From an uncultured bacterium (GTDB taxonomy: Bacteria > Fidelibacterota > Marinisomatia > SCGC-AAA003-L08 > JACNLC01): a stretch of DNA of 64,000 bases. The notes below the pieces were generated by a model. That model ran no database searches and was not told where the DNA came from. It saw only the letters and a program-made list of their open reading frames with translations. Below, piece after piece: positions 35,130 to 61,805 of the stretch. The position numbers were made by a program, and so were the translations under genes. Positions within the stretch are counted from its first letter, which is position 1. Each line of letters starts with the position of its first letter. The DNA lies in NCBI GenBank assembly GCA_964527215.1, contig CAZGNZ010000001.1:193276-257275 (forward strand), given 5' to 3'.

Positions 35130-35185
35130 TTGTTCCCCTTTGGTTATTTTAATCTATAGACAGAAAAAATATTGAACACAGCCAT

Positions 35186-43273: not shown

Positions 43274-43825
43274 TGATTTTCGTATTCGCTGCAGCGGAAA
43301 GTTACAGCAGTCCGGACCGTTCCATGCCACAACAATGGTCACACCCCGCACGGGTGACAGAGCGGCTGGCAGACGACCGGGATCTGCCTGATGACCGGGA
43401 AGGCAGCACATGCATTCTTGGCTGCCGAATACTCCGGACAGACCGGTCTGAAGCGACCATTCAGACGGATTCCGAATTCAGACAGTAGCGCTGTTTCCAG
43501 CAGGAAATGATACAAAACCCGCCGACACAAACCGAACGCTGAAGGGATCGGAAATTGCGTATTAAAACCTGCTGAAGGGGTAAAAATATGAAACACCGGG
43601 GGCCGTAATCAGCGGTTCTGAATACGGCATGAACCCTGTTAAAAAAAAATTATATAACCGTCAAGCATAAACTTCACCTAAAGCATTGATATTTACAGGA
43701 ATTGGCAGAATAAGTTTTACATATTGATACAAAGAATATTTGGATATGAAAAGGGGGGCGGGTATAGTTTCCGCTGGGTTATTTTATATGGATTTGATAA
43801 TTAAGAAATCATAATGGAGTCTTAA

Positions 43826-46800
43826 GTGAAAACAACGCGTCTGTATACCGCACTTACATTTATTTTCTTAACCTTCCTCTCTGCCGGGACGCTGGGCAGA
43901 TTTGAGCTGATGGAACCATCAGATTCTGAAACACGATTGAACTTTCGGCTGGATCAGTTTTCAATGACTGAAACGGGTCGATTCCAGAAGTTTGAAATCG
44001 AGACCGCGGGGAAAACAACGGAAGCCGGGATGCCGGAACTGCCGGTTTTCTCCACAATGTTCCAGATGGAGCCCGGAATCACCTATGAGGTTACATACCA
44101 GGTTCGGCAATCCAGCGTGATGACAGATATCGATCTTCTGCCTTCCAGCGGGATTGAAGAACCGGAACCCGGTCAGGAAACTGCCGATCCGGATGACAGC
44201 GCTTACGGCACTATCGCAGTGTATCCCCAGAGTAATATTTCAATATCAGAACCGCACATCATGCGGGGACTGGAGCTGGCGGTAGTGACCCTGATTCCCT
44301 TCAGCTATTCACCTCAGACCCGGCAGTTGGAGATTTATGAAGAGGTTGAAATTCAGGTGTTTGAAAGCGGCACCCGTCCGATTGGGAATATCGTGAACAT
44401 GCCCCGGTCCCGCACCTTTGAACCGCTGTATGAATCCCTAATTGTGAATTATGAGCCGACCGACCGGGATGAAGATTTTCAGCAGCCGGCAATACTGTAT
44501 GTCTGCGGCGGCGGCAGCAACGGTGCCATCAATCATCCATCCTTCAACGATCTGGTGGAATGGCGTCATCAGAGAGGCTGGGTGGTATATACGGCACACA
44601 CCGGTCAGACCGGATCCAGCAGCAGCAACATCAAAAATTATATCGAAGATGCCTATGAAACCCTGAACCCACCACCGGAAATCGTGGGCCTGGTCGGAGA
44701 CGTGGGCGGATCATTTGATATCCCCACCTGGTATGAAAACTGGTCCTGGTACAGCGGGGAAGGGGATCACCCCTATTCACAGCTGGACGGCACCGATATT
44801 TTCCCGGAAGTATTGATCGGACGTATCTCCGTCAACAGCAGCACGGATATTGCCAATGTGATCAACAAGACAATTGCATACGAGCAGGCATATTATGTTG
44901 AAAACAACTGGCTGGAAAAAGCCGCGCTGGTGGGTGACCCGACTCATTCCGGCCTGTCCACAATTATTACAAACCAGTATATCGAAAACATGATGTCGAA
45001 TTACGGATTTGAGGACATTCGAACCAACTACGGTGACGGGAACTACTCTTCCTGGATGCAGAGCCAGCTGAATGAAGGAATTGCCTATTTCAACTACCGG
45101 GGCTACATCGGTACCAGCGGATTTGGCACGTCCAACATCAACAATGCCAATAACGGTTATATGACGCCCTTTGTCACATTTCTGACATGTTCAACCGGCG
45201 GATTTTCCGGAACAGCCATTACGGAAAGCTTCCTGCGCGCAGGCACGGTTGCCTCGCCAAAGGGGGGTGTGGCTGCCATTGGAACCGCCACTTCAGGAAC
45301 CCATACCCTGTATAACAATATTGTCCAGATGGGTATTTACGAAGGCATATTCTCACGCGGGCTGGAGACCGCAGGCGGTGCCCTTGCATCCGGCAAACTG
45401 GCCCTTTACAATGCCTATCCAAACAATCCGGATGATAAGGTCAGCATCTTTACCCACTGGAACAATCTTATGGGTGATCCGGGACTGCATCTTTGGACCG
45501 ATACACCGCTGCAGCTGATTGTTGAACATGCCGAAACCGTGGGTGCCGGCACCAACATCATTGATGTCCTCGTTACCGATACCGACGGCATTCCCGTTGA
45601 GGATGCCTGGGTGACACTGCTCGCGGATGATGATGCGATTTTTACCACCGTTCTGACCAATTCGGAAGGTTTGGCAACATTGCCCCTGAATACCGAATAT
45701 ACCGGTGACGTTCTCGTGACTGTCACAAAGAAAAATGTTGCTCCCAGTCAAACCAGCTTTGATATCTCCAGTGATGGTCCGGCAGTTAACATCGTCGAAA
45801 CAGACATCACGGTAGATGATTCCGCAGGGAACAATGACGGGATACTGAACCCCGGTGAAACCGTCACACTCACCATCGCTTTCGCCAATTACGGCAATGA
45901 ACCTGCCGAAAATGTTGTTGCCACGATTTCCTCTGATAACGAACTGGTTGAATTTCAGAACACCTCTTCAACGTTTGAATTTTTTGATTTAGGCCAGCTT
46001 TACTACGGAAACTATGAGTTCACTCTGGCTGCGGAAGCCGTTCAGAATGAGGCTCTGGGACTTCGAATTGATATGATGGATGCGGGCGGCGTCAGCGGCG
46101 TGGCGTCTGTACCCATGCACGTCAATGGTGCAAAACTGGAAATTGACGGATACTCTGTTGTAGGTCAGGATTATCTGCTGGCAGGCGTATCCAATCAGGT
46201 CCGGGTAGAACTCTACAACGAGGGCATGGTCTCATCAGAAAACGTTCAGGGATATGTCATCAGCCATACCCAGCTGCTGGATGTGGAAACCGCAGATTTG
46301 AGCTGGAACAGCATCGAAAGTCTGGGAAGTGCAGAAAGCAGTCAGACATTTTCCGTTTATGCCAGCAACGATATTATCCGTGGCTCAATCCTGAGTCTGG
46401 AAATAGAGTTGTGGAATGATGCCGGTTACGACCGATCGGTAATCCTGAACCTCCAGGTGGGCGAGGTCACGGTTATGGATCCTCTCGGACCCGATGCATT
46501 TGGACATTATATCTATGATTCCGAAGATCTGAATTACAGTCTGGCAGTTCCCTATGACTGGATTGAAATTGATCCTTCACTGGGCGGAGACGGGACATCG
46601 CTGAACCTGAACGATCAGGGGTACGGCAACCCGGTTTCACAGCTGTCCGCCCATTTGGATATCCCCTTCACCTTTACCTTTTACGGTGTGGATTATACAG
46701 AAATCAGCGTAAGCAGCAACGGCTGGATTTCTTTCGGGGATGTAGAGAGCGAATCGTTCCGGAATTATCCGTTGCCCGGACCCGGCGGACCGTCCCCAAT

Positions 46801-47374
46801 GGTGGCCGTGTTCTGGGATGATTTGAAAACATCGGGCGGCGGACAGGCATACAGTTATATTGACGAAGATGCCGGCATCGTCATTATAGAATGGTCCGAC
46901 ATGCACACCTATGACAACAACAGTCCCGAAACCTTTCAGATTATACTCATCGACGCCATATCTCCCACCGGTGATGATGAAATGATCCTGCAGTACAAAG
47001 ACTTCAATAATACTACCACCGGCAATCTGGAGAGCGGCGGTGTGATTCACGGCTCTCACTGCACGGTTGGTATTGAAAACCATTTGGGAACGGACGGTCT
47101 CCTGTACACCTATGACGATGAATATCCGGAAGCAGCCCTGGAAATCACAGATGAGACCGCACTCTTTATCACTACCCGGCAGCCGCTGGCACTGCTGAAG
47201 GGCGATGTAAATCAGGATGGCGGCGTGGATATTCTGGATATTGTGCTGGTGGTCAATGATATCGTAAATATTACTCCCCTGGGACCGCTGGAACTGTATA
47301 TCGCGGATATGGATGAAAACGGTATTGTCAATATTCTGGATGTGATCCAGATGATCAACAATATTGTACAGTAA
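43826..47374 (+). CDS. Peptidase C25 (gingipain)-like secreted protein with NIDO-like domain and C-terminal dockerin-like module
   Basis: Signal peptide. C25-type blocks (YSQLDGTDIFPEVLIGRISV; FNYRGYIGTSGFG...FVTFLTCSTGGF). Later IPFTFTFYGVDYTEISVSSNGWISF...VAVFWDDL (NIDO-like). The tail is GDVNQDGGVDILDIVLVVNDIV...ADMDENGIVNILDVIQMINNIVQ at 47201..47371. Confidence 0.8.
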   Translation: MKTTRLYTALTFIFLTFLSAGTLGRFELMEPSDSETRLNFRLDQFSMTETGRFQKFEIETAGKTTEAGMPELPVFSTMFQMEPGITYEVTYQVRQSSVMTDIDLLPSSGIEEPEPGQETADPDDSAYGTIAVYPQSNISISEPHIMRGLELAVVTLIPFSYSPQTRQLEIYEEVEIQVFESGTRPIGNIVNMPRSRTFEPLYESLIVNYEPTDRDEDFQQPAILYVCGGGSNGAINHPSFNDLVEWRHQRGWVVYTAHTGQTGSSSSNIKNYIEDAYETLNPPPEIVGLVGDVGGSFDIPTWYENWSWYSGEGDHPYSQLDGTDIFPEVLIGRISVNSSTDIANVINKTIAYEQAYYVENNWLEKAALVGDPTHSGLSTIITNQYIENMMSNYGFEDIRTNYGDGNYSSWMQSQLNEGIAYFNYRGYIGTSGFGTSNINNANNGYMTPFVTFLTCSTGGFSGTAITESFLRAGTVASPKGGVAAIGTATSGTHTLYNNIVQMGIYEGIFSRGLETAGGALASGKLALYNAYPNNPDDKVSIFTHWNNLMGDPGLHLWTDTPLQLIVEHAETVGAGTNIIDVLVTDTDGIPVEDAWVTLLADDDAIFTTVLTNSEGLATLPLNTEYTGDVLVTVTKKNVAPSQTSFDISSDGPAVNIVETDITVDDSAGNNDGILNPGETVTLTIAFANYGNEPAENVVATISSDNELVEFQNTSSTFEFFDLGQLYYGNYEFTLAAEAVQNEALGLRIDMMDAGGVSGVASVPMHVNGAKLEIDGYSVVGQDYLLAGVSNQVRVELYNEGMVSSENVQGYVISHTQLLDVETADLSWNSIESLGSAESSQTFSVYASNDIIRGSILSLEIELWNDAGYDRSVILNLQVGEVTVMDPLGPDAFGHYIYDSEDLNYSLAVPYDWIEIDPSLGGDGTSLNLNDQGYGNPVSQLSAHLDIPFTFTFYGVDYTEISVSSNGWISFGDVESESFRNYPLPGPGGPSPMVAVFWDDLKTSGGGQAYSYIDEDAGIVIIEWSDMHTYDNNSPETFQIILIDAISPTGDDEMILQYKDFNNTTTGNLESGGVIHGSHCTVGIENHLGTDGLLYTYDDEYPEAALEITDETALFITTRQPLALLKGDVNQDGGVDILDIVLVVNDIVNITPLGPLELYIADMDENGIVNILDVIQMINNIVQ

Positions 47375-47409
47375 CAAAAACCGGGACGGACTTAATCGGG
47401 ATCTGATCA

Positions 47410-48573
47410 GTGGAAATTCTGATACTGTTCATACTGATAATTACTCTTTTGCTGCTGGGATGGCGGGAAAACCACCGCCATCTCATTTCCCTGCAGCGGA
47501 TCCCCATGCGCATACACATCAATGGAGCAAGGGGTAAATCCAGTGTTACTCGTCTGATCGCCGCCGGATTGCGAAACGGCGGACTGCGGACTCTGGCCAA
47601 GACCACCGGTTCAGCACCCAGAGTCATTACCATGGAGGGGAAGGATCAGGTGATCCATCGTCTTCGCAGTGCATCCATTGGCGAGCAGGTTCGTCTGCTG
47701 AGGGGATTTGCCCGTCAGAAGCCGGATGTTGTGGTGATGGAATGCATGGCCGTACAGCCCCAGTACCAGTGGGTGGCTGAGCAGAAAATGGTGCAGTCCA
47801 CCATTGGTGTGATCACCAATGTCCGTCCGGATCATCTGGAGGAAATGGGGCCCCGGCTTTCGGATATTGCCTATTCGCTTTCCAATACCATTCCCTTCAA
47901 CGGCCTCATGGTTACGGCTGAGCACAAGAAGCTGAAAGAACTGCGGGAAATCGCAGGCAAACGACATACTCGGCTGTTTGAGGTTCATTCTGAAGATATT
48001 TCCCTGGATTACATGAACCGGTTTCCATATCTGGAGCATGATGAAAATGTGGCCCTCGCAGTCAAAGTATGCGAACTGGCCGGTATTTCCCGGAAAACTG
48101 CTTTGGACGGAATGATTCATGCCAAACCGGATCCGGGTGCACTGGTACTGTGGAAACTGAAATTCAATGGTAATACCTGTCGGTTTGTCAATGCATTTGC
48201 CGCCAATGATCCACTGTCCACGTTGAAAATCTGGCAGCTGGTGGAACATCGTCTTGTCGATGAAAAAACATGTGTTTTCCTGAACACAAGACCGGACCGG
48301 CGTTCACGAACGCGGCAGATGATGAGTCTTGTAAAAGACTATATTAAACCCAGTATTCTTATTATTCGCGGTGACAATCTCTCCGTTTCGCTTTTGGATG
48401 AATTAAGAAAAGCCCGAATTGCCGTACACACGTATCCCCTGAGTGTAAAACCTGAAGAAGCCGTCTCCAAACTGGCCAAACTGGATAAGCATTTTATATT
48501 TGGTATTGGCAATATGGTCGGGTGGGGAGACAGTTTTGTAACAACGCTGAAGAAGTATCGTATCAATGATTGA
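47410..48573 (+). CDS. pgsB: Poly-gamma-glutamate synthase PgsB/CapB
   Basis: Collinear by eye with B. subtilis PgsB: N-terminal TM, INGARGKSSVTRL (cf. INGIRGKSTVTRL), ECMAVQPQYQ, PDPGAL, FAANDPLST. GTG start. Confidence 0.93.
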   Translation: MEILILFILIITLLLLGWRENHRHLISLQRIPMRIHINGARGKSSVTRLIAAGLRNGGLRTLAKTTGSAPRVITMEGKDQVIHRLRSASIGEQVRLLRGFARQKPDVVVMECMAVQPQYQWVAEQKMVQSTIGVITNVRPDHLEEMGPRLSDIAYSLSNTIPFNGLMVTAEHKKLKELREIAGKRHTRLFEVHSEDISLDYMNRFPYLEHDENVALAVKVCELAGISRKTALDGMIHAKPDPGALVLWKLKFNGNTCRFVNAFAANDPLSTLKIWQLVEHRLVDEKTCVFLNTRPDRRSRTRQMMSLVKDYIKPSILIIRGDNLSVSLLDELRKARIAVHTYPLSVKPEEAVSKLAKLDKHFIFGIGNMVGWGDSFVTTLKKYRIND

Positions 48574-49018
48574 AAATGTTGAAATTGCTGTCGGACTTGG
48601 AATTGTTCTGAGTCTGTTTCTGACCGAAACACTGGGTGTCACCGCCGGCGGAGTAATCGTTCCGGGGTACATCGCTCTGTACCTGCACCATCCCTGGCAG
48701 GTGATAAGTACGTTTGCCGTCGCACTGACGGTGTATTTTATCATCCAGGGACTGTCCCGTGTCATGCTGATTTACGGGAAACGCCGACTGGTTCTCAGCC
48801 TGCTCCTGGGATTTTTCCTGGGGGTTCTTACCAAAAAATATCTTCTGTTCCCGGAAGAAGGGGTAAACCTGGCCGTGATCGGTAATATTATTCCGGGTCT
48901 GATTGCCAGCTGGATGGACAGGCAGGGAGTCACGCGTACTGCAAGTGTGATCCTGATCGTGGCCGTGGTCGTTCAGCTGTTTCTTATGGTGACCGGACTG
49001 GAGGTGCCCAATGTTTAG
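48566..49018 (+). CDS. pgsC: Poly-gamma-glutamate biosynthesis membrane protein PgsC/CapC
   Basis: GGVIVPGYIALY, MLIYGKRR and IIPGLIASW match PgsC (AGLVVPGYLAL, MILYGRRK, IVPGLIAN). 8-nt overlap with pgsB. Confidence 0.9.
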   Translation: MIENVEIAVGLGIVLSLFLTETLGVTAGGVIVPGYIALYLHHPWQVISTFAVALTVYFIIQGLSRVMLIYGKRRLVLSLLLGFFLGVLTKKYLLFPEEGVNLAVIGNIIPGLIASWMDRQGVTRTASVILIVAVVVQLFLMVTGLEVPNV

Positions 49019-50132
49019 ACCTGCAATTCAGCAGACACGGGTTCTGGTTGGAATCGCAGTGTTTAATCTTTTGGTTTTTTTGATCGCATCAAAATCCACC
49101 GTTGTGGCAGAAGCCCGAGGATACACCGAGAAAATTGAATCCGCGCGTCTGATGCAGTCTGCAATGCAGACGCTGAAGGAATCCCGAACCGGAGCTGATG
49201 CCGTGTTCGTGGATGTTGAAAATGATCCCAACGAAACCGCTTTGGTCGGGCCCCAGTACAGCCTGATTACCACAGATGAGGGGAATCTGGATCACAAGCT
49301 CACCACCCTGAATCCCAATTTTGCGGCACTGTTTGTCGATCTGCTTCTGGAAGCAGGCTGTCAGCCGGGAGATCCGGTGGCAGTGGCCGTGACCGGATCC
49401 ATGCCGGGCGCAAATCTGGCATTGTATTCCGCGATGAGCGTTCTGGACCTTGAACCGTTTATCATAACATCCGTCGGCGCATCACAATGGGGAGCCACTG
49501 ATCCGTGGTTCACATGGCTGGATATGGAAACCATCCTGAAGAACGCCGGGGTATTTGAATTCAAGAGTTCTGCGGCATCCATCGGCGGAAAGGGAGATAC
49601 CGGTAAAGGAGTCAGTCTGCGGGGCCGGGAACTGCTTTGGGAATCCATTTACCGGAACAATATCGCTCTGATCCAGGAAGCCAACCTGCTGCAGAGTATG
49701 GATGTCCGTCAGTCAACTTACGAGGGCAATCTGCCGCTGGATCAATACAAAGCCTATATCAATATTGGCGGGGGTGCTGCAAGCGTCGGTCCCAGTATTA
49801 ATGCAAGGCTGATTCCAACCGGTGTGGTTCCCGCAGAAGAACTTCGCGGCTTAGGCGGACGCAGTGTGCTTTCTGAATTTGCACAGGCCGGGGTATCTGT
49901 GGTGCATCTGCTGGATGTTCCAGAAATTTCCGCGGATAACGACCTTCCGTCCGCACCCGTTCCACTGCCGGAAATCGGCAGCGGAAAACTGTATTCCGAA
50001 TTGAAATATAATATCTGGATCGCTTTTACTGCACTGCTGCTGACTGTCGGTGTGACCATTTATATCGGTGTGCTGAGTCATCGTCAGATCAAGCACAGAA
50101 TGGAGACCTATGAACCCGAATCAATCCTGTAA
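49011..50132 (+). CDS. Likely 'poly-gamma-glutamate system protein' (PgsA-replacing third component)
   Basis: 373 aa with TM segments at both ends. It overlaps pgsC by 8 nt. It has no similarity to the metallophosphoesterase-like PgsA/CapA. The assignment rests on position and my memory of the family that accompanies PgsBC outside Bacillus, so it needs an HMM check. Confidence 0.5.
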   Translation: MFRPAIQQTRVLVGIAVFNLLVFLIASKSTVVAEARGYTEKIESARLMQSAMQTLKESRTGADAVFVDVENDPNETALVGPQYSLITTDEGNLDHKLTTLNPNFAALFVDLLLEAGCQPGDPVAVAVTGSMPGANLALYSAMSVLDLEPFIITSVGASQWGATDPWFTWLDMETILKNAGVFEFKSSAASIGGKGDTGKGVSLRGRELLWESIYRNNIALIQEANLLQSMDVRQSTYEGNLPLDQYKAYINIGGGAASVGPSINARLIPTGVVPAEELRGLGGRSVLSEFAQAGVSVVHLLDVPEISADNDLPSAPVPLPEIGSGKLYSELKYNIWIAFTALLLTVGVTIYIGVLSHRQIKHRMETYEPESIL

Positions 50133-51021
50133 GTTTTGGCTGATCTTTTCCGTTTTCCTCTGCAGTACGGCCCTGTCCGGGGTCATTTCACCGCTGGAGT
50201 CGGAGAAGCGGGAAATTCTGACCATCAATGAAAAACGGCGGACCTACTATCAACTCCACAATGAACCTCTGAACTACCAGATCAAGGGTCCCCGTGAACT
50301 CACGCTGTACGCTCGAAAAGCGGTTCCAAAACACAACAAAAAACTGCATGGTTTCGGGTACCAGATTGGGCTGGATGACGGAGAGCCGGTGCTGGTTTCA
50401 CACGAGAAAGCGCTCTACAGTGCCGTCAAATCCGGAGCTCATCCCGGACACAGTTATACTTCCAGCGGAAAATACATCATCAAGATTCCCGCCGGACATC
50501 ACACCCTCACGCTGGCACCGCTGAAACCCCGAAGCGGACCGGTGCTGATTCGAATCATTGCTTCAGATCCGCCGGACAAGGAAAACGGCATATTCCTGGC
50601 GCCCAGTCATGGAGAAGATCCGGTACATCTCAGAATCGCCGGTAAAAAAATCCGGTATTTTGAACTGCTTGGAAACCAGCCGCTGAATTTCGATCTGGAC
50701 GGTCCGGGAGTAATGGAAGTCCGGAGCAGGCTGGCCTTCCTCGACTGGATGGGACCGGAAGAACCCTACCGCATTCGGGTGAAACTCGACGGTGTTCCGG
50801 AAGGGACCTTTTTCTTTACGGCAGACAAATCCGATGCCACGGATGTCATGGAAGACAAAACCATCGTCCCCGGTAAATGGCGTTCCTGCGACATCAGGAT
50901 TCCACAGGGGGCTCACAACGTGACTCTCGAACTGCTCAACCGGGATAAAAAGGTGTACGTTCGCTGCAAAGAATACAAGCCTGCTGCAGAATCGAACCAG
51001 CGTTTGAATCCGAAGCGATGA
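50110..51021 (+). CDS. Secreted protein made of two tandem homologous ~130-aa domains (unknown function)
   Basis: Signal peptide FWLIFSVFLCSTALSG. Half 1 is YYQLHNEPLNYQIKGPRELTLYAR...GYQIGLDDGEPV...IKIPAGHHTLTL. Half 2 is YFELLGNQPLNFDLDGPGVMEVRSR...RIRVKLDGVPEG...IRIPQGAHNVTLEL. 23-nt overlap with the upstream gene. Confidence 0.75.
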   Translation: MNPNQSCKFWLIFSVFLCSTALSGVISPLESEKREILTINEKRRTYYQLHNEPLNYQIKGPRELTLYARKAVPKHNKKLHGFGYQIGLDDGEPVLVSHEKALYSAVKSGAHPGHSYTSSGKYIIKIPAGHHTLTLAPLKPRSGPVLIRIIASDPPDKENGIFLAPSHGEDPVHLRIAGKKIRYFELLGNQPLNFDLDGPGVMEVRSRLAFLDWMGPEEPYRIRVKLDGVPEGTFFFTADKSDATDVMEDKTIVPGKWRSCDIRIPQGAHNVTLELLNRDKKVYVRCKEYKPAAESNQRLNPKR

Positions 51022-52070
51022 ACCGGTTTTTTATCAAATTCACCCTCGGTTTTTTAACAGCCATGCTGCCGGCCGCCATCCTGGCTTCCGGATTCTCGGT
51101 ACCGGTGGTGCTGACACCTGCAGTATCGGTGGGATACGACTCCAATTTTCTGAAACTGTCTGATGAGGAAATGGACCGCGCAGATCTGGACCGCAGCTAT
51201 CTGGGTGATTCAGAAAACTTTGATTCCGCGTTCCTCAAACCGGAATTTCGACTGCAGTATGCGCCGTATCTCCTGGGTGAGAATGAAACCAGACTGGTTT
51301 TTTGGACAGCATACTCTCACTACACTCAATCAGACATAAAAGGCTATGCTTCCTGGCTCGTGCGGCTGGAGCAGCATCTTGGCCCCTATTCCTGGCTGAA
51401 ACTCCAGATTTCCCAACTGCCTGAATTTTATCTGCGAACCTATATCGACCGGGACTACACCAGCAAGCTTCGCCAGGACTGCAGTTTCTCCTATGAATCA
51501 TGGTACGTCAGTTATTCCCTGCCCCTGATGAAAAAGACATGGGCTCAGGTGAAGCGGCAGGAGTCCAAGGAATATTATAATCCGGTGTTTGCGGAATTCG
51601 ACACGGAAAAAACCGGAACCGAATTGAAAATCTCCAGCACACTGGTTCGCGACTGGCGGTTTCAGGCCTGGGCGGAGATGGGGTCCGCGGACAATGTTTC
51701 ATTTCAGTCGGGACTGAACAGTACCCGTCAGGACCGTTCGTATGACTATCTCGAATACGGCGGCAGCATTCGCCGAACGCTGGATTGCTGGATTAAGGAT
51801 ATTGCCCTCAAAGCGGATTTTCATTACCGGGAATACCATACCGATGATCCTGAGGATCCCCTGCATGCCGGCCGGGAGCATCTGGACGGGAAATTTACCC
51901 TCACTATGAATCGCCCTCTGACTGGTAACTGGAATGCCCAGCTGAACCTTCGCTACCGCAATAAATTCACGGAATCGGGATACGACTGGGTAGAGGATTT
52001 AAAATCATTTGAGCAGTTCCAGATTTGGCTCAAAATCAGTTACCGTTTTCATTCAGACATTCTTTATTAA
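51018..52070 (+). CDS. Predicted small outer-membrane beta-barrel protein
   Basis: Signal peptide. Amphipathic strand pattern throughout. C-terminal ...FQIWLKISYRFHSDILY ends in an aromatic residue. ATGA overlap with the upstream gene. Confidence 0.65.
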   Translation: MNRFFIKFTLGFLTAMLPAAILASGFSVPVVLTPAVSVGYDSNFLKLSDEEMDRADLDRSYLGDSENFDSAFLKPEFRLQYAPYLLGENETRLVFWTAYSHYTQSDIKGYASWLVRLEQHLGPYSWLKLQISQLPEFYLRTYIDRDYTSKLRQDCSFSYESWYVSYSLPLMKKTWAQVKRQESKEYYNPVFAEFDTEKTGTELKISSTLVRDWRFQAWAEMGSADNVSFQSGLNSTRQDRSYDYLEYGGSIRRTLDCWIKDIALKADFHYREYHTDDPEDPLHAGREHLDGKFTLTMNRPLTGNWNAQLNLRYRNKFTESGYDWVEDLKSFEQFQIWLKISYRFHSDILY

Positions 52071-52094
52071 ACTCGATGATTGGAATTTTTGCAG

Positions 52095-53180
52095 ATGAAA
52101 CACTTTAAGTACCCACTGTATTTCCTGCTGACACTGGCATTTTTTACGCAGGCCTGCATATCACCCTCAGACCCGGAAGGTCTGAAATCTGAACATGTCA
52201 TCACCATTGACACCATTGGATACTGCAAGGATTTTGACCTGAATGATACCCTGCTGGTGCTGGCTGCCAATGAAAACGGCTATATGGTATTTGAATATGA
52301 ATTTGATGCCCAGGGACAGTTCCATTATGAGTTTATTTATGACGACAATGATATGGACAATGACGGAAGCGGGGTGGATAAAATTTCTTCCGTGCAAATC
52401 TCCGAGCAGTTTCCGCTGCTGTACCTGATGGATCACAGCGACGGTGTGTACTACACCAATATCGGAATGCCCGATGATGATCTTGCAACGGGCAAGCTGG
52501 GCGGAGGTCTTTCGGAAAACCGGGATATTGTGCGCAGCATGATCCTGGATGATTCCCGTCCGGACCAGCCCATTCTGTATTCCCTGCGCAAGCCGGGCAG
52601 CGCTGAAAATTATACGGAAATCAATGCCCGGTACCTGTCGGCGTTTGGAGAAAACCCGATGTTTGTTTTTGAAAATGATACACCCAGCTGGGGAATCCTG
52701 AATGAGGCAGCGGAAAGTATCTGCCTGGCCGACAGTCTGATGTCGGTGACCCTGTCCGAACTGGGTGTGGCGGTGTACAGGCAGCAGGCGGACGGTTCGC
52801 TGGTTGAATTTACCGCTTTCGATACACCGGGTATCGCGCAGACCGTGTATTCCGTTGGTCAGAGAATATTTGCGGGTCTGGATGAGGATTTTGGTTGTTA
52901 CACCGCGTTACTTGATTCGGTAGGCAATATTGACCATACATTTAATATCGCAGAAGGTTATTCGGTTCGCAGCATTCACTATAACGACGGTATTCTGGCG
53001 CTGGCCTGCGGGAACGACGGCGTGCTGCTTTTTGAATGGAGCGGGACAGACAGCGATCACACATTTGAAGAACTGGGCTGGCTGGAATCGGCGTATGCCT
53101 ATCGAGCCCACGTTTATGACAGTCAGAAAATTTTTGTGGCCACCCGCAGTGGTCTGCAGTTATTTAATCTGGAAAACTAA
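52095..53180 (+). CDS. Hypothetical lipoprotein (possibly beta-propeller)
   Basis: MKHFKYPLYFLLTLAFFTQAC has a lipobox. The ORF opens at 52080. No catalytic motifs were recognised. Confidence 0.65.
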   Translation: MKHFKYPLYFLLTLAFFTQACISPSDPEGLKSEHVITIDTIGYCKDFDLNDTLLVLAANENGYMVFEYEFDAQGQFHYEFIYDDNDMDNDGSGVDKISSVQISEQFPLLYLMDHSDGVYYTNIGMPDDDLATGKLGGGLSENRDIVRSMILDDSRPDQPILYSLRKPGSAENYTEINARYLSAFGENPMFVFENDTPSWGILNEAAESICLADSLMSVTLSELGVAVYRQQADGSLVEFTAFDTPGIAQTVYSVGQRIFAGLDEDFGCYTALLDSVGNIDHTFNIAEGYSVRSIHYNDGILALACGNDGVLLFEWSGTDSDHTFEELGWLESAYAYRAHVYDSQKIFVATRSGLQLFNLEN

Positions 53181-53192
53181 AAAGGAATCATT

Positions 53193-56105
53193 ATGCGGTT
53201 CTTAATCATATTTTTGGTGTTTTCATTGGCAGCGGCCCAGTTTGACTGGGCGGAAGACGGTGTACCGGTGCGTCAGGGTGACCATATTGAATGGCAGCGC
53301 GGAGGAGATATCGGGGATGCGGATGAAATGATTATCGTCTGGTCCGACACCCGATATGGTGATCGGGATATCTTTGTGCAGAAGATAAACAACCTGGGTG
53401 AAAGGCAGTGGAACATTATGGGTGCACCTGTTGTGATTGCAGAAGGACGGCAGGAAGACCCCATCATCATATCCGACGGAAACGGTGGCTGCTACTGTAT
53501 GTGGGTTGATTATGAAGCCGAACCGGAGGATGGGGACATTTATGGGCAGCATATTAACGCCGACGGCGAGATACAGTGGGATCCCAGAGGGGTTCCGCTG
53601 TCTGTTGAACCCGGGAAACAGGTTGCTCCCAATATGAGCAGCGACGGGGCCGGCGGCGCTTTCGCCATCTGGGATGATAAGAATGCCGCCAATGACGGTC
53701 ATATCTATGCCACTCACATGAGTCCGGCCGGGGTTCTGGCAAGCGGAACCGGGATTCCCATTATCACCAGTGCCGGTGCGCACGGGGCAGTAAGTATCGA
53801 ATCAAGCGGGTCCGGCTATGCCATGCTGGTCTGGGAACAGTGGGGCAATGGAGACTTCACTGATCTGTATGCCCAGCGTATTGACACCAGCTGTGACACC
53901 CAGTGGACCACTCCGGAAGAAGGCGGGATCATGTTCTGCAGCGCTCCCGATTTCCAGTATAAACCCAAAGTGAATGATTTCAACGGTGACGTTTCCGCGG
54001 TTGTCTGGGAAGACCGCCGCAACAACCCGGAATCGGGCGATATTTATATCCAGCTGCTGGATTCCGACGGAAACTCGCTGCTGGCAGCGGACGGAGAACC
54101 GGTATGCGACAATGAGTTTCATCAGTTCGGTGCCCGTGTGAAGGCCGATGATTCCGGAGCATATATTGTGTGGGAAGATAAGCGTTACGGTGATAATTCC
54201 GATATTTATATTCAGCGCTGGACGGTGGCTGACGGAGCGGAGTTTGATGACAATGGGTTTTCGCTGGCATCAATCGGGTTTGGAAAATCTGCTCCGCGTC
54301 TGACAACGGACGGCGAAGGCGGAACATGGGTCGTTTGGGAAGATGAGCGGGAAAACAGTTTCCCGCAGGTTGAAATTTATGTGCAGCACGTGGATGAAAG
54401 CGGAACCATCGCATTTGATGATAACGGCCTGCTTGTCTGTGACGCGGAAAATCTGCAGTTTAACCCGCTGGTGCGTTCCGACGGCAGCGGCGGAGCATTG
54501 GTGTGCTGGGGTGACAAACGGACCGGCAGTATCGGTCTGTACGTACAGCATCTGGATGTGGAAACCGGAATTACGCTTGAGCCCAACGGCATTGAAATTT
54601 ACTACGGGATCGACGGCCATGCCCATAACGGATCATCCGTCTATCTCGGCAATGACCAGGCATTTCTGTTCTGGCAGGATGAACGGGCCGGCAGTGAAAA
54701 TCCCCTGATATACGGCGTGATTGTGGATGAGAATTTTGATGATATTGACAATCAGAACGGCCTCAAGATTTCAGAGAATCCCTATCAGGAGAATCCCAAA
54801 GCCGTCCGTGTCGGCGACAATGTATTCATGAATTTCAAAAGCAAGGATTCCATGGGCACATTTATTCAGTACTACATTGTGCTGGACAATCAGCTGACGG
54901 TCGTGTCCAGCAGCAATCTTGGTGAACCCGTTTACGCCATAAACTGGGCTTTCAATCAGGATTATTCTGTTCAAACGACAGGCAGCGATGATCATGTCTA
55001 TTTTGCCTATTCCGATCTGCGCAACTGGAGCGATTATGATGTGTATGTTCAGAAAATCAATGATCAGGGTGTGCGTCAGTGGGATTCCGAAGCGCTGCTG
55101 CTGGGCGGTACCGACGGAGATGATATCGTCCAGAGCATTGAACCGATGCCTGACGGCGGCTGCGTTGTGGTCTGGCAGGGCGGTCCCTGGGATGATCTGA
55201 ATATTTATGCCAATGCTTTTGACAGCAGCGGCGAACATTTGGACAGCTGGGGCACTGACGGACTGGAGATCTCTGCCGGGACAGGGAATCAGTCGAACGC
55301 TGTCAGCGTCAGTACTGACGACGGCATATTGATTGTCTGGAAGGACACCCGCAACGAAAATGCTGATCTGTTTGGTCAGTTTGTGGATTTTGACGGAAAT
55401 ATTCTGGGTGATGAGGACGGATTTGTCATCGCCGATGCCCTCAATGATCAGCAGAATCCCGCTGTTACCTACAACCCGATGCTGGATGAAGTACTGATCT
55501 GCTGGGAAGATTTTGAAAACGGTCTGGATTTTGACCTCAACTGTCGGACATTCAGTGATGAATATCTTATGCTGGACGATGTATCGGCCATCACGGCAAT
55601 TCCCAATATCAATGAAACCCAGCCGTTTGTGTATACTTCCATGGAAGGTAATTACATGATTGCCTGGGAAGATACCCGAAATACGGGCGGTCTGGTATCG
55701 GATATATTCTACCAGGAATATCAGCAGTTCCCCCAGGAACCGGAGTTTGCGGCCGGCGGAATTCCCATCTGTGACTTTGTGTTCAAACAGGAATCCCCCA
55801 AGATTGACCTGTATGCCGGATCAACCGGTTCGTACATGATTTACTGGGATGACTCCCGAAGTTCAGGTAAGGAAGATCTCATAAATATTTATGCCCAGTC
55901 ACGAACACTGGGTGATCCCTTCTGTCATTCCGGTGATGTGAATTTCGACGGCAGTCTGGACATTCTTGATATTGTATCCATCGTGGGCTATATCCTTGGC
56001 AATATTGAATTTTCTGACAATCAGGTCTGTGCTGCGGATTACAATGCCGACAGCAATGTGGATATTCTGGATATTGTAGGTGCAGTGGCAGAGATTCTGG
56101 AGTAA
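53193..56105 (+). CDS. Secreted ~15-repeat protein (WxDxR...DIYxQ repeats) with C-terminal dockerin-like module
   Basis: Signal peptide MRFLIIFLVFSLAAAQ. Repeats of ~55-60 aa include IIVWSDTRYGDRDIFVQKIN, AVVWEDRRNNPESGDIYIQLLD, YIVWEDKRYGDNSDIYIQRW, WVVWEDERENSFPQVEIYVQHVD, LVCWGDKRTGSIGLYVQHLD, LIVWKDTRNENADLFGQFVD and MIYWDDSRSSGKEDLINIYAQS. The tail is GDVNFDGSLDILDIV...ADYNADSNVDILDIV at 55932..56102. Confidence 0.85.
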   Translation: MRFLIIFLVFSLAAAQFDWAEDGVPVRQGDHIEWQRGGDIGDADEMIIVWSDTRYGDRDIFVQKINNLGERQWNIMGAPVVIAEGRQEDPIIISDGNGGCYCMWVDYEAEPEDGDIYGQHINADGEIQWDPRGVPLSVEPGKQVAPNMSSDGAGGAFAIWDDKNAANDGHIYATHMSPAGVLASGTGIPIITSAGAHGAVSIESSGSGYAMLVWEQWGNGDFTDLYAQRIDTSCDTQWTTPEEGGIMFCSAPDFQYKPKVNDFNGDVSAVVWEDRRNNPESGDIYIQLLDSDGNSLLAADGEPVCDNEFHQFGARVKADDSGAYIVWEDKRYGDNSDIYIQRWTVADGAEFDDNGFSLASIGFGKSAPRLTTDGEGGTWVVWEDERENSFPQVEIYVQHVDESGTIAFDDNGLLVCDAENLQFNPLVRSDGSGGALVCWGDKRTGSIGLYVQHLDVETGITLEPNGIEIYYGIDGHAHNGSSVYLGNDQAFLFWQDERAGSENPLIYGVIVDENFDDIDNQNGLKISENPYQENPKAVRVGDNVFMNFKSKDSMGTFIQYYIVLDNQLTVVSSSNLGEPVYAINWAFNQDYSVQTTGSDDHVYFAYSDLRNWSDYDVYVQKINDQGVRQWDSEALLLGGTDGDDIVQSIEPMPDGGCVVVWQGGPWDDLNIYANAFDSSGEHLDSWGTDGLEISAGTGNQSNAVSVSTDDGILIVWKDTRNENADLFGQFVDFDGNILGDEDGFVIADALNDQQNPAVTYNPMLDEVLICWEDFENGLDFDLNCRTFSDEYLMLDDVSAITAIPNINETQPFVYTSMEGNYMIAWEDTRNTGGLVSDIFYQEYQQFPQEPEFAAGGIPICDFVFKQESPKIDLYAGSTGSYMIYWDDSRSSGKEDLINIYAQSRTLGDPFCHSGDVNFDGSLDILDIVSIVGYILGNIEFSDNQVCAADYNADSNVDILDIVGAVAEILE

Positions 56106-56109
56106 TGTG

Positions 56110-58338: not shown

Positions 58339-58351
58339 ACGAAAGCAGGAT

Positions 58352-61225: not shown

Positions 61226-61247
61226 ATCTTGACAGAGTGAAATCCCG

Positions 61248-61703
61248 GTGAAGAAACGTTTCTATGAAGATGGACTGCGTTTCGAGTGCACCGGATGTGG
61301 TGATTGCTGCCGCTTCTCAGAAGCGGCAGTTTTTGTTACGGATGAGGAAGTCCGTGCGATCGCCGGATTTTTGGAAATGACTGAAGAGAAATTCCGCAGC
61401 CGGTATGTGGATCCGGATAAGACACCTCAGCAACTGAATAATCCAACCGAAGACTGCATATTTTTGAATACGGATACAATGAAATGCCGGATATACGATG
61501 TTCGTCCCAGTCAGTGCCGCACCTTCCCGTTCTGGGGAGAGATTATTAAATCAAAATACCGCTGGAAATATATCAAAACCCAGTGCAAAGGGGTGGATCA
61601 GGGACGGTTGTACACGTACGAGGAAATTCGGAATATTGCCCGAAACCGGATGGACACAGGGCCCGGTCCCGTCGAACCTTCAGAACCGCCAGAGGAAGAA
61701 TAG
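61248..61703 (+). CDS. YkgJ-family Cys-cluster (CxxCxxCC) protein
   Basis: FECTGCGDCCRF plus the later CIFL...C...C pattern. GTG start. Confidence 0.7.
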   Translation: MKKRFYEDGLRFECTGCGDCCRFSEAAVFVTDEEVRAIAGFLEMTEEKFRSRYVDPDKTPQQLNNPTEDCIFLNTDTMKCRIYDVRPSQCRTFPFWGEIIKSKYRWKYIKTQCKGVDQGRLYTYEEIRNIARNRMDTGPGPVEPSEPPEEE

Positions 61704-61805
61704 AGATGGCCGTTATCCGGATGGCATGCCGGCAGCACCGATAATTCGGCTCATTCAGCGGATTAAACCGCCGACGCGCAACCGCTGATGGCATGTCTTC
61801 TTCTT

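What the first reader, a model, noticed from the sequence alone, without database searches (positions are those of the whole stretch)
47410..53180. Poly-gamma-glutamate synthesis genes in a diderm, without PgsA, followed by a candidate outer-membrane export module
Seen in the sequence: pgsB and pgsC are unmistakable (collinear with the B. subtilis proteins). There is no metallophosphoesterase-like PgsA/CapA and no PgsE. Instead there is a 373-aa double-TM protein, then three more genes chained by overlaps or very short gaps (8, 8, 23 and 4-nt overlaps, then 9 nt). These are a secreted two-domain protein (50110..51021), a ~350-aa predicted OM beta-barrel (51018..52070) and a lipoprotein (52095..53180).

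Established knowledge: the PgsBCA(E) machine is described for monoderm Bacillus. How PGA would cross an outer membrane is, to my knowledge, not defined.

Inference: the periplasmic protein, barrel and lipoprotein trio may be the missing OM leg of a diderm PGA pathway, analogous in logic to the Wza/PgaA/AlgE exopolysaccharide porins.
Basis: partly seen in the sequence, partly recalled or inferred. Interest (0 to 1): 0.75.

Follow-up and report, generated by a model that had tools for sequence, protein, structure and literature searches.

The report
Outer-membrane module for polyglutamate export
A marine Marinimicrobia genome links the genes that make the polymer poly-gamma-glutamate to two undescribed envelope proteins, a basic periplasmic adaptor and a 14-stranded outer-membrane barrel, which are the best candidates so far for how a double-membraned bacterium gets this polymer across its outer membrane.

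Summary
pgsB, pgsC, a 373-aa two-TM protein, a secreted two-domain protein (X), a beta-barrel (Y) and a lipoprotein (Z) are chained by 8/8/23/4-nt overlaps.

Corrections:
- The 373-aa protein is not new. It is TIGR04332, the "poly-gamma-glutamate system protein" (NCBI gene pgsW), the type called CapA in Francisella.
- The unit is larger: ten genes, 43826-61225. It adds two C25 peptidases, an M14 peptidase and a ~970-aa repeat protein.

Support for the interpretation:
- X and Y have no Pfam or NCBIfam family.
- They follow pgsBCW in every one of 80 Marinimicrobia genomes whose contig reaches far enough (X 74/74, Y 66/66, Z 62/64).
- Six of seven distant Y homologues (GC 29-67%) lie in loci with pgsC and pgsW, five of them also with pgsB. 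One locus is rearranged.
- X-type domains occur fused to PgsW and, twice, to the N-terminus of Y.
- AlphaFold gives Y as a 14-strand barrel (pLDDT 95.5), closest to CymA and OmpG. Its lumen-facing residues are net basic. X is a basic tandem beta-sandwich.

Limits:
- Export itself is inferred; pore openness was not measured.
- Z is accessory.
- A Fusobacteriota pgsBCW locus lacks X/Y, so this is one solution, not the universal one.

The parts
43826..47374 (+). C25 (gingipain-type) cysteine peptidase with propeptide, Ig-like domains and a C-terminal dockerin-type module. First gene of the conserved locus.
   Evidence: Pfam Peptidase_C25 E=2e-49, Propeptide_C25, Dockerin_1. A C25 gene sits directly upstream of pgsB in most Marinimicrobia loci.
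47410..48573 (+). pgsB, poly-gamma-glutamate synthase (ATP-dependent amide ligase, Mur-ligase fold).
   Evidence: NCBIfam TIGR04012 equivalog E=6.8e-122, 406.9 bits (cut-off 222.7), residues 4-379 on profile 1-379/380. Pfam Mur_ligase_M.
48566..49018 (+). pgsC, small integral-membrane subunit of the synthetase. Overlaps pgsB by 8 nt.
   Evidence: TIGR04011 E=2.4e-34 (118.5 bits, cut-off 96.45). Pfam Caps_synth_CapC E=1.6e-32.
49011..50132 (+). pgsW (TIGR04332, 'poly-gamma-glutamate system protein'). It has an N-terminal and a C-terminal TM helix flanking a ~300-aa domain inferred to be periplasmic. It takes the place of PgsA/CapA and is the same type as Francisella 'CapA'.
   Evidence: TIGR04332 E=1.1e-85, 287.5 bits (cut-off 100). 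At least 1861 homologues, many named 'poly-gamma-glutamate system protein'. Gene symbol pgsW in a RefSeq record. [quoted passage not shown] No Pfam family and no solved relative. Topology is inferred from the basic residues before TM1 and after TM2, and from the L009 fusion.
50110..51021 (+). X: secreted, basic periplasmic protein made of two homologous jelly-roll beta-sandwich domains. Proposed polymer-binding adaptor between PgsW and the barrel. New family.
   Evidence: No Pfam or NCBIfam hit. AF2 pLDDT 84.4, pTM 0.75, two all-beta domains. Foldseek finds CBM22 tandem, CBM-bearing xylanases and malectin-like tandems at E~1e-5 but TM only ~0.25. Both halves of the L095 homologue match the same half of the X profile. 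Net charge +9, median +10 in 41 homologues. Found fused to PgsW in L009 and to Y in P0168 and P0120. Overlaps pgsW by 23 nt.
51018..52070 (+). Y: 14-stranded outer-membrane beta-barrel. Proposed outer-membrane conduit for the polymer. New family.
   Evidence: AF2 pLDDT 95.5, pTM 0.88, 14 strands. Best PDB fold matches are CymA (4d51) and OmpG (2iwv), both 14-strand channels; the PgaA barrel 4y25 ranks 19. 539 cluster representatives at E<=1e-3 in an exhaustive search. Only 6 of 95 members touch the generic Pfam OMP_b-brl. Lumen-facing strand residues: 20 K+R against 12 D+E, family mean net +7.5. K108, R140, R271 and R316 are 81-94% conserved. Ends in Tyr; 56 of 95 members end in an aromatic residue. 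Overlaps X by 4 nt.
52095..53180 (+). Z: very acidic lipoprotein, an LVIVD-type beta-propeller. Accessory component: present in Marinimicrobia and some other lineages, absent in others. The TTG at 52080 is an alternative start.
   Evidence: A leader followed by a Cys is visible in all 73 homologues; a strict lipobox pattern matched 60. 14 of 31 diverse homologues hit Pfam LVIVD, best E=2.5e-32; the window protein itself does not. Net charge -41, median -27. Present in 62 of 64 Marinimicrobia loci with room. Z-like genes sit next to Y in L011, L012, L095 and L096; none in L009, L013, L014.
53193..56105 (+). ~970-aa secreted repeat protein (~50-aa 'W.D.R..G..DIY.Q' units, probably beta-propeller blades) with a C-terminal dockerin-type module. 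Function unknown.
   Evidence: Dockerin_1 E=3e-6. Sub-threshold hits to a beta-propeller repeat model and to GH43. This gene or a C25 gene follows Z in 53 of 54 loci with room.
56080..58338 (+). M14 zinc carboxypeptidase with a CarboxypepD_reg domain and a dockerin-type module. Candidate polymer-trimming enzyme (inference).
   Evidence: Peptidase_M14 E=7e-31. Conserved in the locus. The phage PGA hydrolase PghP is a Zn metallopeptidase related to carboxypeptidase A (PMC4497714). An M14-like succinylglutamate desuccinylase precedes pgsB in Cetobacterium.
58328..61225 (+). Second C25 cysteine peptidase with a dockerin-type module. Last gene of the locus.
   Evidence: Peptidase_C25 E=8e-48, Dockerin_1 E=3e-8. 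Conserved position after M14.
61306..61330 (+). Terminator-like hairpin (11-bp stem, 7 G-C pairs, T-run). Probable end of the transcription unit.
   Evidence: Strongest terminator-like site in 43000-62000. The total number of such sites is no higher than in shuffled sequence, so this is only suggestive.

Best explanation
The region is the core of a ten-gene locus (43826-61225) conserved across the phylum Marinimicrobia (Fidelibacterota).

Proposed mechanism:
- Three genes encode a PgsA-less poly-gamma-glutamate synthetase of the PgsB-PgsC-PgsW type. PgsB and PgsC polymerise glutamate at the inner membrane.
- PgsW has two TM helices and a ~300-aa periplasmic domain. It receives the chain on the periplasmic side.
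- X is a basic protein of two beta-sandwich domains. It binds the polyanion and bridges PgsW to Y.
- Y is a 14-stranded outer-membrane barrel whose lumen carries conserved Lys and Arg residues. It lets the unbranched polyanion out.
- Z is an acidic LVIVD beta-propeller lipoprotein. It is an accessory outer-membrane partner.
- The downstream repeat protein, M14 carboxypeptidase and C25 peptidases act on, or together with, the surface polymer.

What is shown:
- gene identities;
- folds (predicted);
- the genetic linkage of X and Y to pgsBCW across distant lineages;
- the domain fusions.

What is inferred:
- the product is PGA;
- PgsW, X and Y touch each other;
- the polymer passes through Y;
- the roles of Z and of the peptidases.

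I put about 0.9 on X and Y being dedicated parts of the PGA system, and about 0.6 on Y being the export conduit.
For: Identity of the synthetase.

Linkage within the phylum. In 80 species-representative genomes the order is C25-pgsB-pgsC-pgsW-X-Y-Z-repeat protein-M14-C25. X is present in 74/74, Y in 66/66 and Z in 62/64 of the loci where the contig has room. Median junctions are -23 nt (pgsW/X) and -1 nt (X/Y).

Linkage outside the phylum. Seven distant Y homologues (E 1e-17 to 1e-29 against the Y profile) were looked up.
- L009, L012, L013 and L014 have pgsB-pgsC-pgsW-X-Y.
- L096 has the same genes in another order (C25-Y-Z-pgsB-pgsC-pgsW-X).
- L095 (Cand. Stahlbacteria) has pgsC-pgsW-..-X-Y-Z-C25.
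- Locus GC ranges from 29% to 67%.

Fusions.
- In L009 one ORF holds PgsW, a third TM segment and a tandem X (X profile E=1e-67).
- The next ORF holds a tandem X-like region plus the Y barrel (hhalign probability 83%, E=8.5e-6; E=1.4e-16 with the broader X profile).
- P0120 is one X-type domain plus the barrel (E=3e-9).

Structure. Y is a confident 14-strand barrel, closest to the channels CymA and OmpG.

Charge.
- The lumen-facing strand residues of Y have net charge +8, and the family mean is +7.5. The whole mature protein is -10.
- X has net charge +9, and 95% of its homologues are positive.

No competing annotation exists. X and Y have no Pfam or NCBIfam family. The CapsuleFinder PGA model has no outer-membrane component.
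Against: - No experiment. No member of X or Y has been studied, and Marinimicrobia are not known to make PGA.
- In Francisella, which has the same PgsBCW type, the locus has not been shown to make PGA (PMC4688374).
A 28-residue loop 1 with two short helices could plug or gate the barrel.
- The lumen and lipid faces were assigned from hydrophobic alternation only.
- The best conserved motifs of Y sit in the presumed extracellular loops. That fits a binding or catalytic site as well as it fits a pore.
- One Y homologue (L011) has Z and an HGSNAT-type acyltransferase but no pgs gene within 10 kb.
- The Cetobacterium pgsBCW locus has no X/Y/Z within 9 kb, and tblastn of Y found nothing on that 664-kb replicon. 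X/Y are therefore not required for every diderm PgsBCW system.
- Only 7 of 539 Y cluster representatives were checked for context.
Confidence: 0.6

Rival explanations
1. Y is not a conduit. It is a surface anchor or lectin for the polymer (as Wzi is for K30 capsule), or an outer-membrane enzyme that cuts or transfers the polymer at its conserved loops. The polymer would cross the outer membrane by another route.
For: The most conserved positions of the family lie in or next to the presumed extracellular loops, which are normally the most variable part of porins: N43, S48, F191, E193, D195, D280, H283, R286, K329, each at least 90% conserved in 95 sequences. They include a Ser/His/Asp-Glu set. 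The linkage to pgs genes fits an anchor or enzyme equally well.
Against: The best fold matches are open 14-strand channels (CymA, OmpG), not OMPLA, omptin or Wzi. Four conserved basic residues face the lumen. X-type domains are fused to the periplasmic N-terminus of Y and to PgsW, which suggests a periplasm-spanning hand-over and not a surface-only role. No other outer-membrane candidate is conserved in the locus.
Confidence: 0.2
2. The PgsB-PgsC-PgsW enzymes do not make free poly-gamma-glutamate here. They make a different glutamyl product, for example a short or lipid- or protein-linked gamma-glutamyl chain. X-Y-Z handle that product.
For: The same PgsBCW type in Francisella is needed for virulence, but capB and capC were not needed for capsule and PGA has not been demonstrated (PMC4688374). 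PgsW is unrelated to PgsA. The locus is locked to C25 and M14 peptidases, which hints at a protein-linked role.
Against: PgsB and PgsC score far above NCBI's equivalog cut-offs. Fusobacterium nucleatum was shown to make PGA (Candela 2009, cited in PMC3815933), and a related Fusobacteriota genome (Cetobacterium) carries a pgsBCW-type locus. The F. nucleatum locus itself was not examined. The basic X and the basic Y lumen fit a polyanion.
Confidence: 0.12
3. X-Y-Z form an uptake or recycling route: a porin plus periplasmic binding protein for glutamate, peptides or PGA fragments released by the neighbouring peptidases. They would feed the synthetase and not export its product.
For: Y resembles substrate-specific uptake channels (CymA). 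The locus contains secreted M14 and C25 peptidases.
Against: The core B-C-W-X-Y cassette occurs without peptidases in L009, L013 and L014. X is fused to PgsW, a synthetase-associated membrane protein, and to Y; that is a poor design for a diffusible binding protein. No inner-membrane importer is conserved in the locus.
Confidence: 0.05
4. X-Y-Z serve the neighbouring secreted proteins (secretion or surface attachment of the dockerin- or T9SS-CTD-bearing peptidases) and are only neighbours of the pgs genes.
For: All 175 large secreted proteins in these loci carry a dockerin-like or a T9SS-type C-terminal module. A C25 gene accompanies Y and Z in L012, L095 and L096.
Against: B-C-W-X-Y persists where no C25 or M14 gene is present (L009, L013). 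The PgsW+X fusion ties X to the synthetase. The 23-nt and 4-nt overlaps chain X and Y to pgsW, not to the peptidase genes.
Confidence: 0.03

Closest known systems
PgsBCA(E)/CapBCA(E) poly-gamma-glutamate synthetase of Bacillus subtilis and B. anthracis
   Same: PgsB and PgsC are full-length equivalogs, in the same order and with overlapping genes.
   Different: No PgsA/CapA (PGA_cap) and no room for PgsE. A PgsW protein takes the third position. The host is a diderm. Seven further conserved genes follow or precede the synthetase genes.
PgsB-PgsC-PgsW (TIGR04332) systems: Francisella tularensis capBCA and the Cetobacterium/Fusobacteriota pgsBCW locus
   Same: The same three-gene synthetase core in a diderm. 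PgsW matches TIGR04332 at E=1e-85.
   Different: The Cetobacterium locus, the only one of these examined here, stops after pgsW: no X, Y or Z within 9 kb. Here, and in several other phyla, X and Y are translationally chained to pgsW.
Synthase-dependent exopolysaccharide outer-membrane porins: PgaA (PNAG), AlgE with AlgK (alginate), BcsC (cellulose)
   Same: The logic is the same: an inner-membrane polymerase, a periplasmic protein-interaction module and a dedicated monomeric beta-barrel for a linear polymer. AlgE has an electropositive pore for a polyanion (established knowledge). The PgaA barrel (4y25) appears among the fold matches. As with PgaA and BcsC, the periplasmic module is sometimes fused to the N-terminus of the barrel.
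   Different: 14 strands, not 16-18. The periplasmic module is a beta-sandwich tandem, not TPR repeats. There is no sequence relation. The cargo is a polyamide, not a polysaccharide.
CymA (Klebsiella oxytoca) and OmpG (E. coli), 14-stranded monomeric channels
   Same: Best structural matches: 14 strands, TM about 0.52-0.66.
   Different: 7-12% identity. Those are uptake channels for cyclodextrins and oligosaccharides, unrelated to polymer synthesis loci. Y has strongly conserved loops and a basic lumen.
Wza/OPX and Wzi of group 1 capsules
   Same: Outer-membrane components dedicated to a capsule polymer. Wzi is a beta-barrel that holds the capsule on the surface, which is the model for the main rival explanation.
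   Different: Wza is an octameric alpha-helical barrel lipoprotein. Wzi has 18 strands. No Pfam hit to either family.

Membership tests
PgsBCA(E) Bacillus-type PGA synthetase | PgsB amide ligase | tested here: met
   TIGR04012 equivalog, 406.9 bits against cut-off 222.7, full length.
PgsBCA(E) Bacillus-type PGA synthetase | PgsC membrane subunit adjacent to PgsB | tested here: met
   TIGR04011, 118.5 bits against cut-off 96.45. 8-nt overlap with pgsB.
PgsBCA(E) Bacillus-type PGA synthetase | PgsA/CapA (PGA_cap metallophosphatase-like protein) | tested here: not met
   No PGA_cap hit in any of the 29 large ORFs of the window scanned against Pfam. The rest of the genome is not available.
PgsBCA(E) Bacillus-type PGA synthetase | PgsE/CapE small peptide | tested here: inconclusive
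   No intergenic room in the operon, since all junctions overlap. Small ORFs elsewhere were not scanned.
PgsB-PgsC-PgsW (TIGR04332-type) system | TIGR04332 protein directly after pgsB-pgsC | tested here: met
   287.5 bits against cut-off 100, residues 12-320 on profile 3-307/307. 8-nt overlap with pgsC.
PgsB-PgsC-PgsW (TIGR04332-type) system | Product is poly-gamma-glutamate | not testable with these tools
   Needs chemistry. Unproven even for Francisella capBCA (PMC4688374).
Outer-membrane beta-barrel protein (general) | Signal peptide, even number of amphipathic strands closing a barrel, C-terminal aromatic residue | tested here: met
   AF2 gives 14 strands at pLDDT 95.5. Hydrophobic/polar alternation in all 14 strands. 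Terminal Tyr. 273 PDB matches at E<=1e-3, and every one of the 50 listed is an outer-membrane barrel or channel protein or an engineered derivative.
Synthase-dependent exopolymer porins (PgaA/AlgE/BcsC) | 16-18-strand barrel homologous to those families, with a TPR periplasmic partner or domain | tested here: not met
   14 strands. No Pfam hit to those families. The periplasmic partner is a beta-sandwich tandem. Works-like only.
Synthase-dependent exopolymer porins (PgaA/AlgE/BcsC) | Open, polymer-conducting pore with a lining that complements the cargo | tested here: inconclusive
   The lumen-facing strand residues are net basic (+8; family +7.5). Pore radius could not be computed because no coordinates are available.
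Wza/OPX polysaccharide export proteins | Poly_export (PES) and SLBB domains, lipoprotein, alpha-helical outer-membrane barrel | tested here: not met
   No such Pfam hits in X, Y or Z. Y is all-beta.
LVIVD-repeat beta-propeller proteins (PF08309), for Z | LVIVD repeats | tested here: inconclusive
   14 of 31 Z homologues hit PF08309 (best E=2.5e-32). The window protein itself has no hit at E<=0.05. No structure was predicted for Z.
Carbohydrate-binding-module-like beta-sandwich (CBM22, malectin-like), for X | Jelly-roll beta-sandwich fold with a ligand-binding face | tested here: inconclusive
   Foldseek probability 1.0 and E~1e-5 to CBM22 tandem, CBM-bearing xylanases and malectin-like ectodomains, but TM only 0.21-0.35 and 8-12% identity. 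No Pfam hit.

The most novel reading that the evidence does not exclude
The ten-gene locus builds a new kind of cell-surface layer. Poly-gamma-glutamate is exported through a dedicated PgsW-X-Y trans-envelope machine. At the surface it serves as the scaffold or acceptor for the co-encoded enzymes. The C25 peptidases, which belong to the family of the T9SS sortase PorU, and/or the conserved Ser/His/acidic loops of Y would cut the polymer or link it to proteins. The dockerin-like or T9SS-type tails of the M14, C25 and repeat proteins would hold them on it. That would be a polyamide-based counterpart of A-LPS anchoring.
Probability: 0.1. Interest if true: 0.9.

Novelty: new variant of a known kind. 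Interest (0 to 1): 0.72.

Why it matters
Poly-gamma-glutamate is a capsule and virulence polymer and an industrial product. Its synthetase genes occur in many double-membraned phyla (PMC5542703). Yet the current capsule models list no outer-membrane component for it, and I found no paper describing one.

This locus supplies two concrete, unannotated protein families (X and Y) that are genetically and architecturally tied to the synthetase in several phyla. That turns 'how does PGA cross an outer membrane?' into a testable question.

It also offers parts for engineering PGA secretion in Gram-negative hosts. It suggests that abundant uncultured ocean bacteria (Marinimicrobia/SAR406) carry a PGA-based surface structure coupled to their secreted peptidases. 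It shows too that the answer is not universal, because Fusobacteriota lack the module.

Tried and rejected
- The search for related loci with the Y alignments (A2, 95 sequences; A3, 36 sequences) failed because no stretch was conserved enough. A reverse co-occurrence survey across genomes was therefore not possible.
- The genome scan with the PgsW alignment confirmed 574 loci but kept only the best 80, all Marinimicrobia. The wanted contrast of phyla (diderm against monoderm PgsW systems) could not be made.
- The word-index homologue search found only 3 Y relatives. The exhaustive profile search was needed.
- Sequence searches of PgsW and PgsB against PDB chains found nothing useful. Pfam at E<=1 found nothing for PgsW.
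- My iterated X profile became contaminated by the X+Y fusion protein (a hit spanning all 644 residues). The claim was re-tested with clean profiles and hhalign.
- tblastn of Y against plasmids found no match.
- Literature searches for TIGR04332, pgsW, and Marinimicrobia with PGA found nothing relevant.
- Considered and rejected: Y as an 8-10-strand anchor (it has 14 strands); X/Y as Wza/OPX or TPR-porin family members (no homology); the finding as chance ORFs.

Full report
**1. Observation**

The overlaps are 8, 8, 23 and 4 nt, followed by a short gap.

- PgsB matches the NCBIfam equivalog TIGR04012 over its whole length (E=7e-122, 407 bits against a cut-off of 223).
- PgsC matches TIGR04011 and Pfam CapC.
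- No PGA_cap (PgsA/CapA) domain occurs in any of the 29 large ORFs of the 64-kb window that I scanned.

**2. The 'double-TM protein' is a known family**

The 373-aa protein matches TIGR04332, 'poly-gamma-glutamate system protein' (E=1e-85, 287 bits against a cut-off of 100).

- At least 1861 relatives were found, many already carrying that name.
- RefSeq gives the gene the symbol pgsW in Cetobacterium somerae.
- The product of Francisella tularensis 'capA' is described the same way (PMC5362203).

A PgsA-less PgsB-PgsC-PgsW system in a diderm is therefore not new. In Francisella the locus matters for virulence, but its product is unproven (PMC4688374). PgsW has no Pfam family and no solved relative.

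Basic residues precede TM1 and follow TM2. I therefore infer that both termini are cytoplasmic and the ~300-aa middle domain is periplasmic.

**3. The organism and the real extent of the unit**

Names attached to homologues place the window in Marinimicrobia/Fidelibacterota.

I mapped ten window proteins onto 94 fetched loci with iterated profiles. The order is nearly invariant: C25 peptidase, pgsB, pgsC, pgsW, X, Y, Z, a ~1000-aa repeat protein, M14 peptidase, C25 peptidase.

Among the 80 species-representative genomes, counting only loci where the contig has room:

| Gene | Present |
|---|---|
| X | 74/74 |
| Y | 66/66 |
| Z | 62/64 |
| repeat protein or a C25 gene next | 53/54 |

Median junctions are -8, -14, -23, -1 and -14 nt from pgsB through Z.

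In the window the unit runs from 43826 to 61225. A strong terminator-like hairpin lies at 61306-61330, but it is only suggestive, because such sites are no more frequent here than in shuffled sequence.

**4. What X, Y and Z are**

None of the three has a Pfam or NCBIfam hit.

*Y*
- AlphaFold2 with a 95-sequence alignment gives pLDDT 95.5, pTM 0.88 and 14 strands.
- The best PDB fold matches are the 14-strand channels CymA and OmpG (TM 0.52-0.66). The PgaA polysaccharide porin barrel ranks 19.
- I assigned the lumen face of each strand from family-averaged hydrophobic alternation. The lumen-facing residues are 20 K+R against 12 D+E, with a family mean net charge of +7.5. The whole mature protein is net -10.
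- K108, R140, R271 and R316 are 81-94% conserved and face the lumen.
It rests on sequence periodicity, not on coordinates, which the tools do not expose.

*X*
- AF2 (pLDDT 84, pTM 0.75) gives two all-beta domains.
- Foldseek finds tandem CBM22, CBM-bearing xylanases and malectin-like ectodomains at E~1e-5. TM is only about 0.25, as expected when two domains are differently oriented.
- The two halves are homologous to each other.
- X is basic: net +9, median +10, positive in 95% of 41 homologues.

*Z*
- All 73 homologues inspected show a hydrophobic leader followed by a Cys; a strict lipobox pattern matched 60 of them.
- 14 of 31 diverse homologues hit the LVIVD beta-propeller repeat.
- Z is very acidic: net -41, median -27.

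**5. Co-occurrence outside the phylum**

An exhaustive profile search found 539 Y-family cluster representatives at E<=1e-3. I looked up the context of seven distant ones.

| Locus | Source | Gene order |
|---|---|---|
| L009 | 12-Mb chromosome, GC 64% | pgsB-pgsC-[PgsW+X]-[X+Y] |
| L012 | metagenome | C25-pgsB-pgsC-pgsW-X-Y-Z(LVIVD+FGE)-HGSNAT |
| L013 | Bacteroidota MAG | pgsB-pgsC-pgsW-X-Y |
| L014 | metagenome | pgsB-pgsC-pgsW-X-Y |
| L095 | Cand. Stahlbacteria, GC 38% | pgsC-pgsW-(two inserted genes)-X-Y-Z-C25 |
| L096 | GC 29% | C25-Y-Z-pgsB-pgsC-pgsW-X-HGSNAT |
| L011 | metagenome | Y, Z and HGSNAT; no pgs gene within 10 kb |

Six of the seven carry pgsC and pgsW, and five of those also carry pgsB. 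One has a rearranged order, which argues for functional linkage and against mere inherited synteny.

**6. Domain fusions**

- In L009 a single ORF carries PgsW, then a short basic loop, then a signal-peptide-like third TM segment, then a tandem X (X profile E=1e-67).
- The next ORF (P0168, 644 aa) carries an X-like tandem in front of the Y barrel. hhalign against a clean Marinimicrobia-only X alignment gives probability 83%, E=8.5e-6. The broader X profile gives E=1.4e-16.
- P0120 (498 aa) is one X-type domain plus the barrel (E=3e-9).

X-type domains are thus found covalently joined to the inner-membrane partner and, independently, to the periplasmic N-terminus of the outer-membrane partner. 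This is the strongest argument that PgsW, X and Y form one periplasm-spanning assembly.

**7. Mechanism proposed**

PgsB and PgsC polymerise glutamate at the inner membrane. The PgsW periplasmic domain takes the emerging chain. Basic X binds it and bridges to Y. The chain leaves through the basic lumen of the 14-strand barrel.

Z is an acidic outer-membrane lipoprotein and is accessory. It is present in Marinimicrobia, L012, L095 and L096, and absent in L009, L013 and L014.

The M14 enzyme is a plausible trimming hydrolase. The phage PGA hydrolase PghP is a Zn enzyme related to carboxypeptidase A (PMC4497714), and an M14-like gene precedes pgsB in Cetobacterium. The role of the C25 peptidases and the repeat protein is open.

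Shown: identities, predicted folds, linkage, fusions, charge patterns. Inferred: contacts, passage through Y, the nature of the polymer.

**8. Evidence against, and limits**

- There is no experiment on any X or Y.
- Pore radius was not computed. The 28-residue loop 1, with two short helices, may gate or plug the barrel.
- The most conserved motifs of Y lie in the presumed extracellular loops: GYDxN..S, YNxxFxE.D, DRSY, DPLHxGR. They include Ser, His and acidic residues, so an anchor or enzyme role is a serious rival.
- L011 shows Y without nearby pgs genes.
- The Cetobacterium pgsBCW locus has no X, Y or Z within 9 kb, and Y has no tblastn match on that replicon. The related F. nucleatum is the first Gram-negative shown to make PGA (Candela 2009, via PMC3815933). 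The module is therefore not the general diderm solution.
- Only 7 of 539 Y representatives were checked.
- The planned genome- and metagenome-wide surveys failed for technical reasons.

**9. Comparison with what is known**

The synthetase belongs to the PgsBCW (TIGR04332) type, not the Bacillus PgsBCA(E) type, because the PgsA test is not met.

X-Y works like the periplasmic-module-plus-porin pairs of synthase-dependent exopolysaccharide systems (PgaA, AlgK/AlgE, BcsC), including occasional fusion of the periplasmic module to the barrel. It is not a member of those families: it has 14 strands and not 16-18, beta-sandwich and not TPR, and no homology.

The CapsuleFinder model of PGA capsules has CapB and CapC as mandatory, CapA and CapE as accessory, and no outer-membrane part. 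The authors themselves note that diderms need one more protein to cross the outer membrane (PMC5542703). Full-text searches found no description of such a component, of pgsW, or of PGA in Marinimicrobia.

**10. Verdict**

This is a new variant of a known kind of system, built from two undescribed protein families.

- Interest: 0.72. It does not overturn expectations, but it makes a standing gap directly testable and points to a PGA-linked surface structure in a very abundant uncultured marine phylum.
- Confidence: about 0.9 that X and Y are dedicated PGA-system components; about 0.6 that Y is the export conduit.

Noticed in passing
window 43826-47374, 53193-56105, 56080-58338, 58328-61225; loci L001-L094: All four large secreted proteins of the locus end in a dockerin type I-like module. 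Across the fetched loci, all 175 complete orthologues (repeat protein, M14, C25) end in either a dockerin-like module (69) or a T9SS-type C-terminal domain (104), never neither. Orthologous surface proteins therefore swap the two tails between lineages. No cohesin partner was seen.
   Followed up: partly
window 51018-52070 (Y), residues 39-48, 187-195, 239-242, 280-286, 329: The most conserved motifs of the barrel family lie in the presumed extracellular loops. They include Ser48, His283 and Asp/Glu residues, each at least 90% conserved. This is unusual for a porin. It could be a gate, a polymer-binding site or an outer-membrane enzyme active site.
   Followed up: partly
L009:7987-9996 and L009:10001-11935 (GCA_977880245.1, 12.2-Mb chromosome); P0120: Fusion proteins: PgsW + third TM + tandem X (669 aa); tandem X + Y barrel (644 aa); single X-type domain + Y barrel (498 aa).
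   Followed up: yes
L011:8674-9783, L012:13597-14694, L096:9669-10778: An HGSNAT_cat (PF07786) membrane acyltransferase recurs next to Y/Z in non-Marinimicrobia loci. In L011 and L012 the Z homologue carries an extra FGE-sulfatase domain. L011 keeps Y+Z+HGSNAT with no pgs gene within 10 kb. This may point to a chemical modification of the polymer or to a second use of the module.
   Followed up: no
L097 (Cetobacterium somerae NZ_CP143320.1, 395187-413897): A Fusobacteriota pgsB-pgsC-pgsW locus is preceded by gamma-glutamyltransferase (CapD-like) and an M14-like succinylglutamate desuccinylase. It lacks X, Y and Z within 9 kb. Its PgsW is shorter (319 aa).
   Followed up: partly
L095:7825-9074 (Cand. 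Stahlbacteria GCA_016208615.1): Two unrelated genes (DUF6978; DUF1828/DUF1829) are inserted between pgsW and X. No pgsB was detected in the locus. A Y1 transposase-like gene lies upstream, so this copy may be decaying or rearranged.
   Followed up: no
window 2523-26152, - strand: A long run of DUF11-repeat proteins. It includes a 2420-aa protein with five DUF11 repeats, a CarboxypepD_reg domain and two OmpA domains, and a 1024-aa protein with no family. This looks like a large cell-surface or envelope structure locus.
   Followed up: no
window 34001-36000 (ORF 33822-35129, - strand): GC drops to 0.36 against about 0.50 elsewhere. The dip lies over a short (435-aa) M13 peptidase ORF and its neighbour. 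This may be foreign or decaying DNA.
   Followed up: no
window 63199-63556, - strand: tmRNA gene (Rfam 181 bits), tag peptide ADYGYSAAA.
   Followed up: no
window 53193-56105: The ~970-aa protein is built of many ~50-aa units of the form 'W.D.R..G..DIY.Q..D..G', probably beta-propeller blades. It has no family above threshold, yet it is conserved after Z in nearly every Marinimicrobia genome.
   Followed up: no
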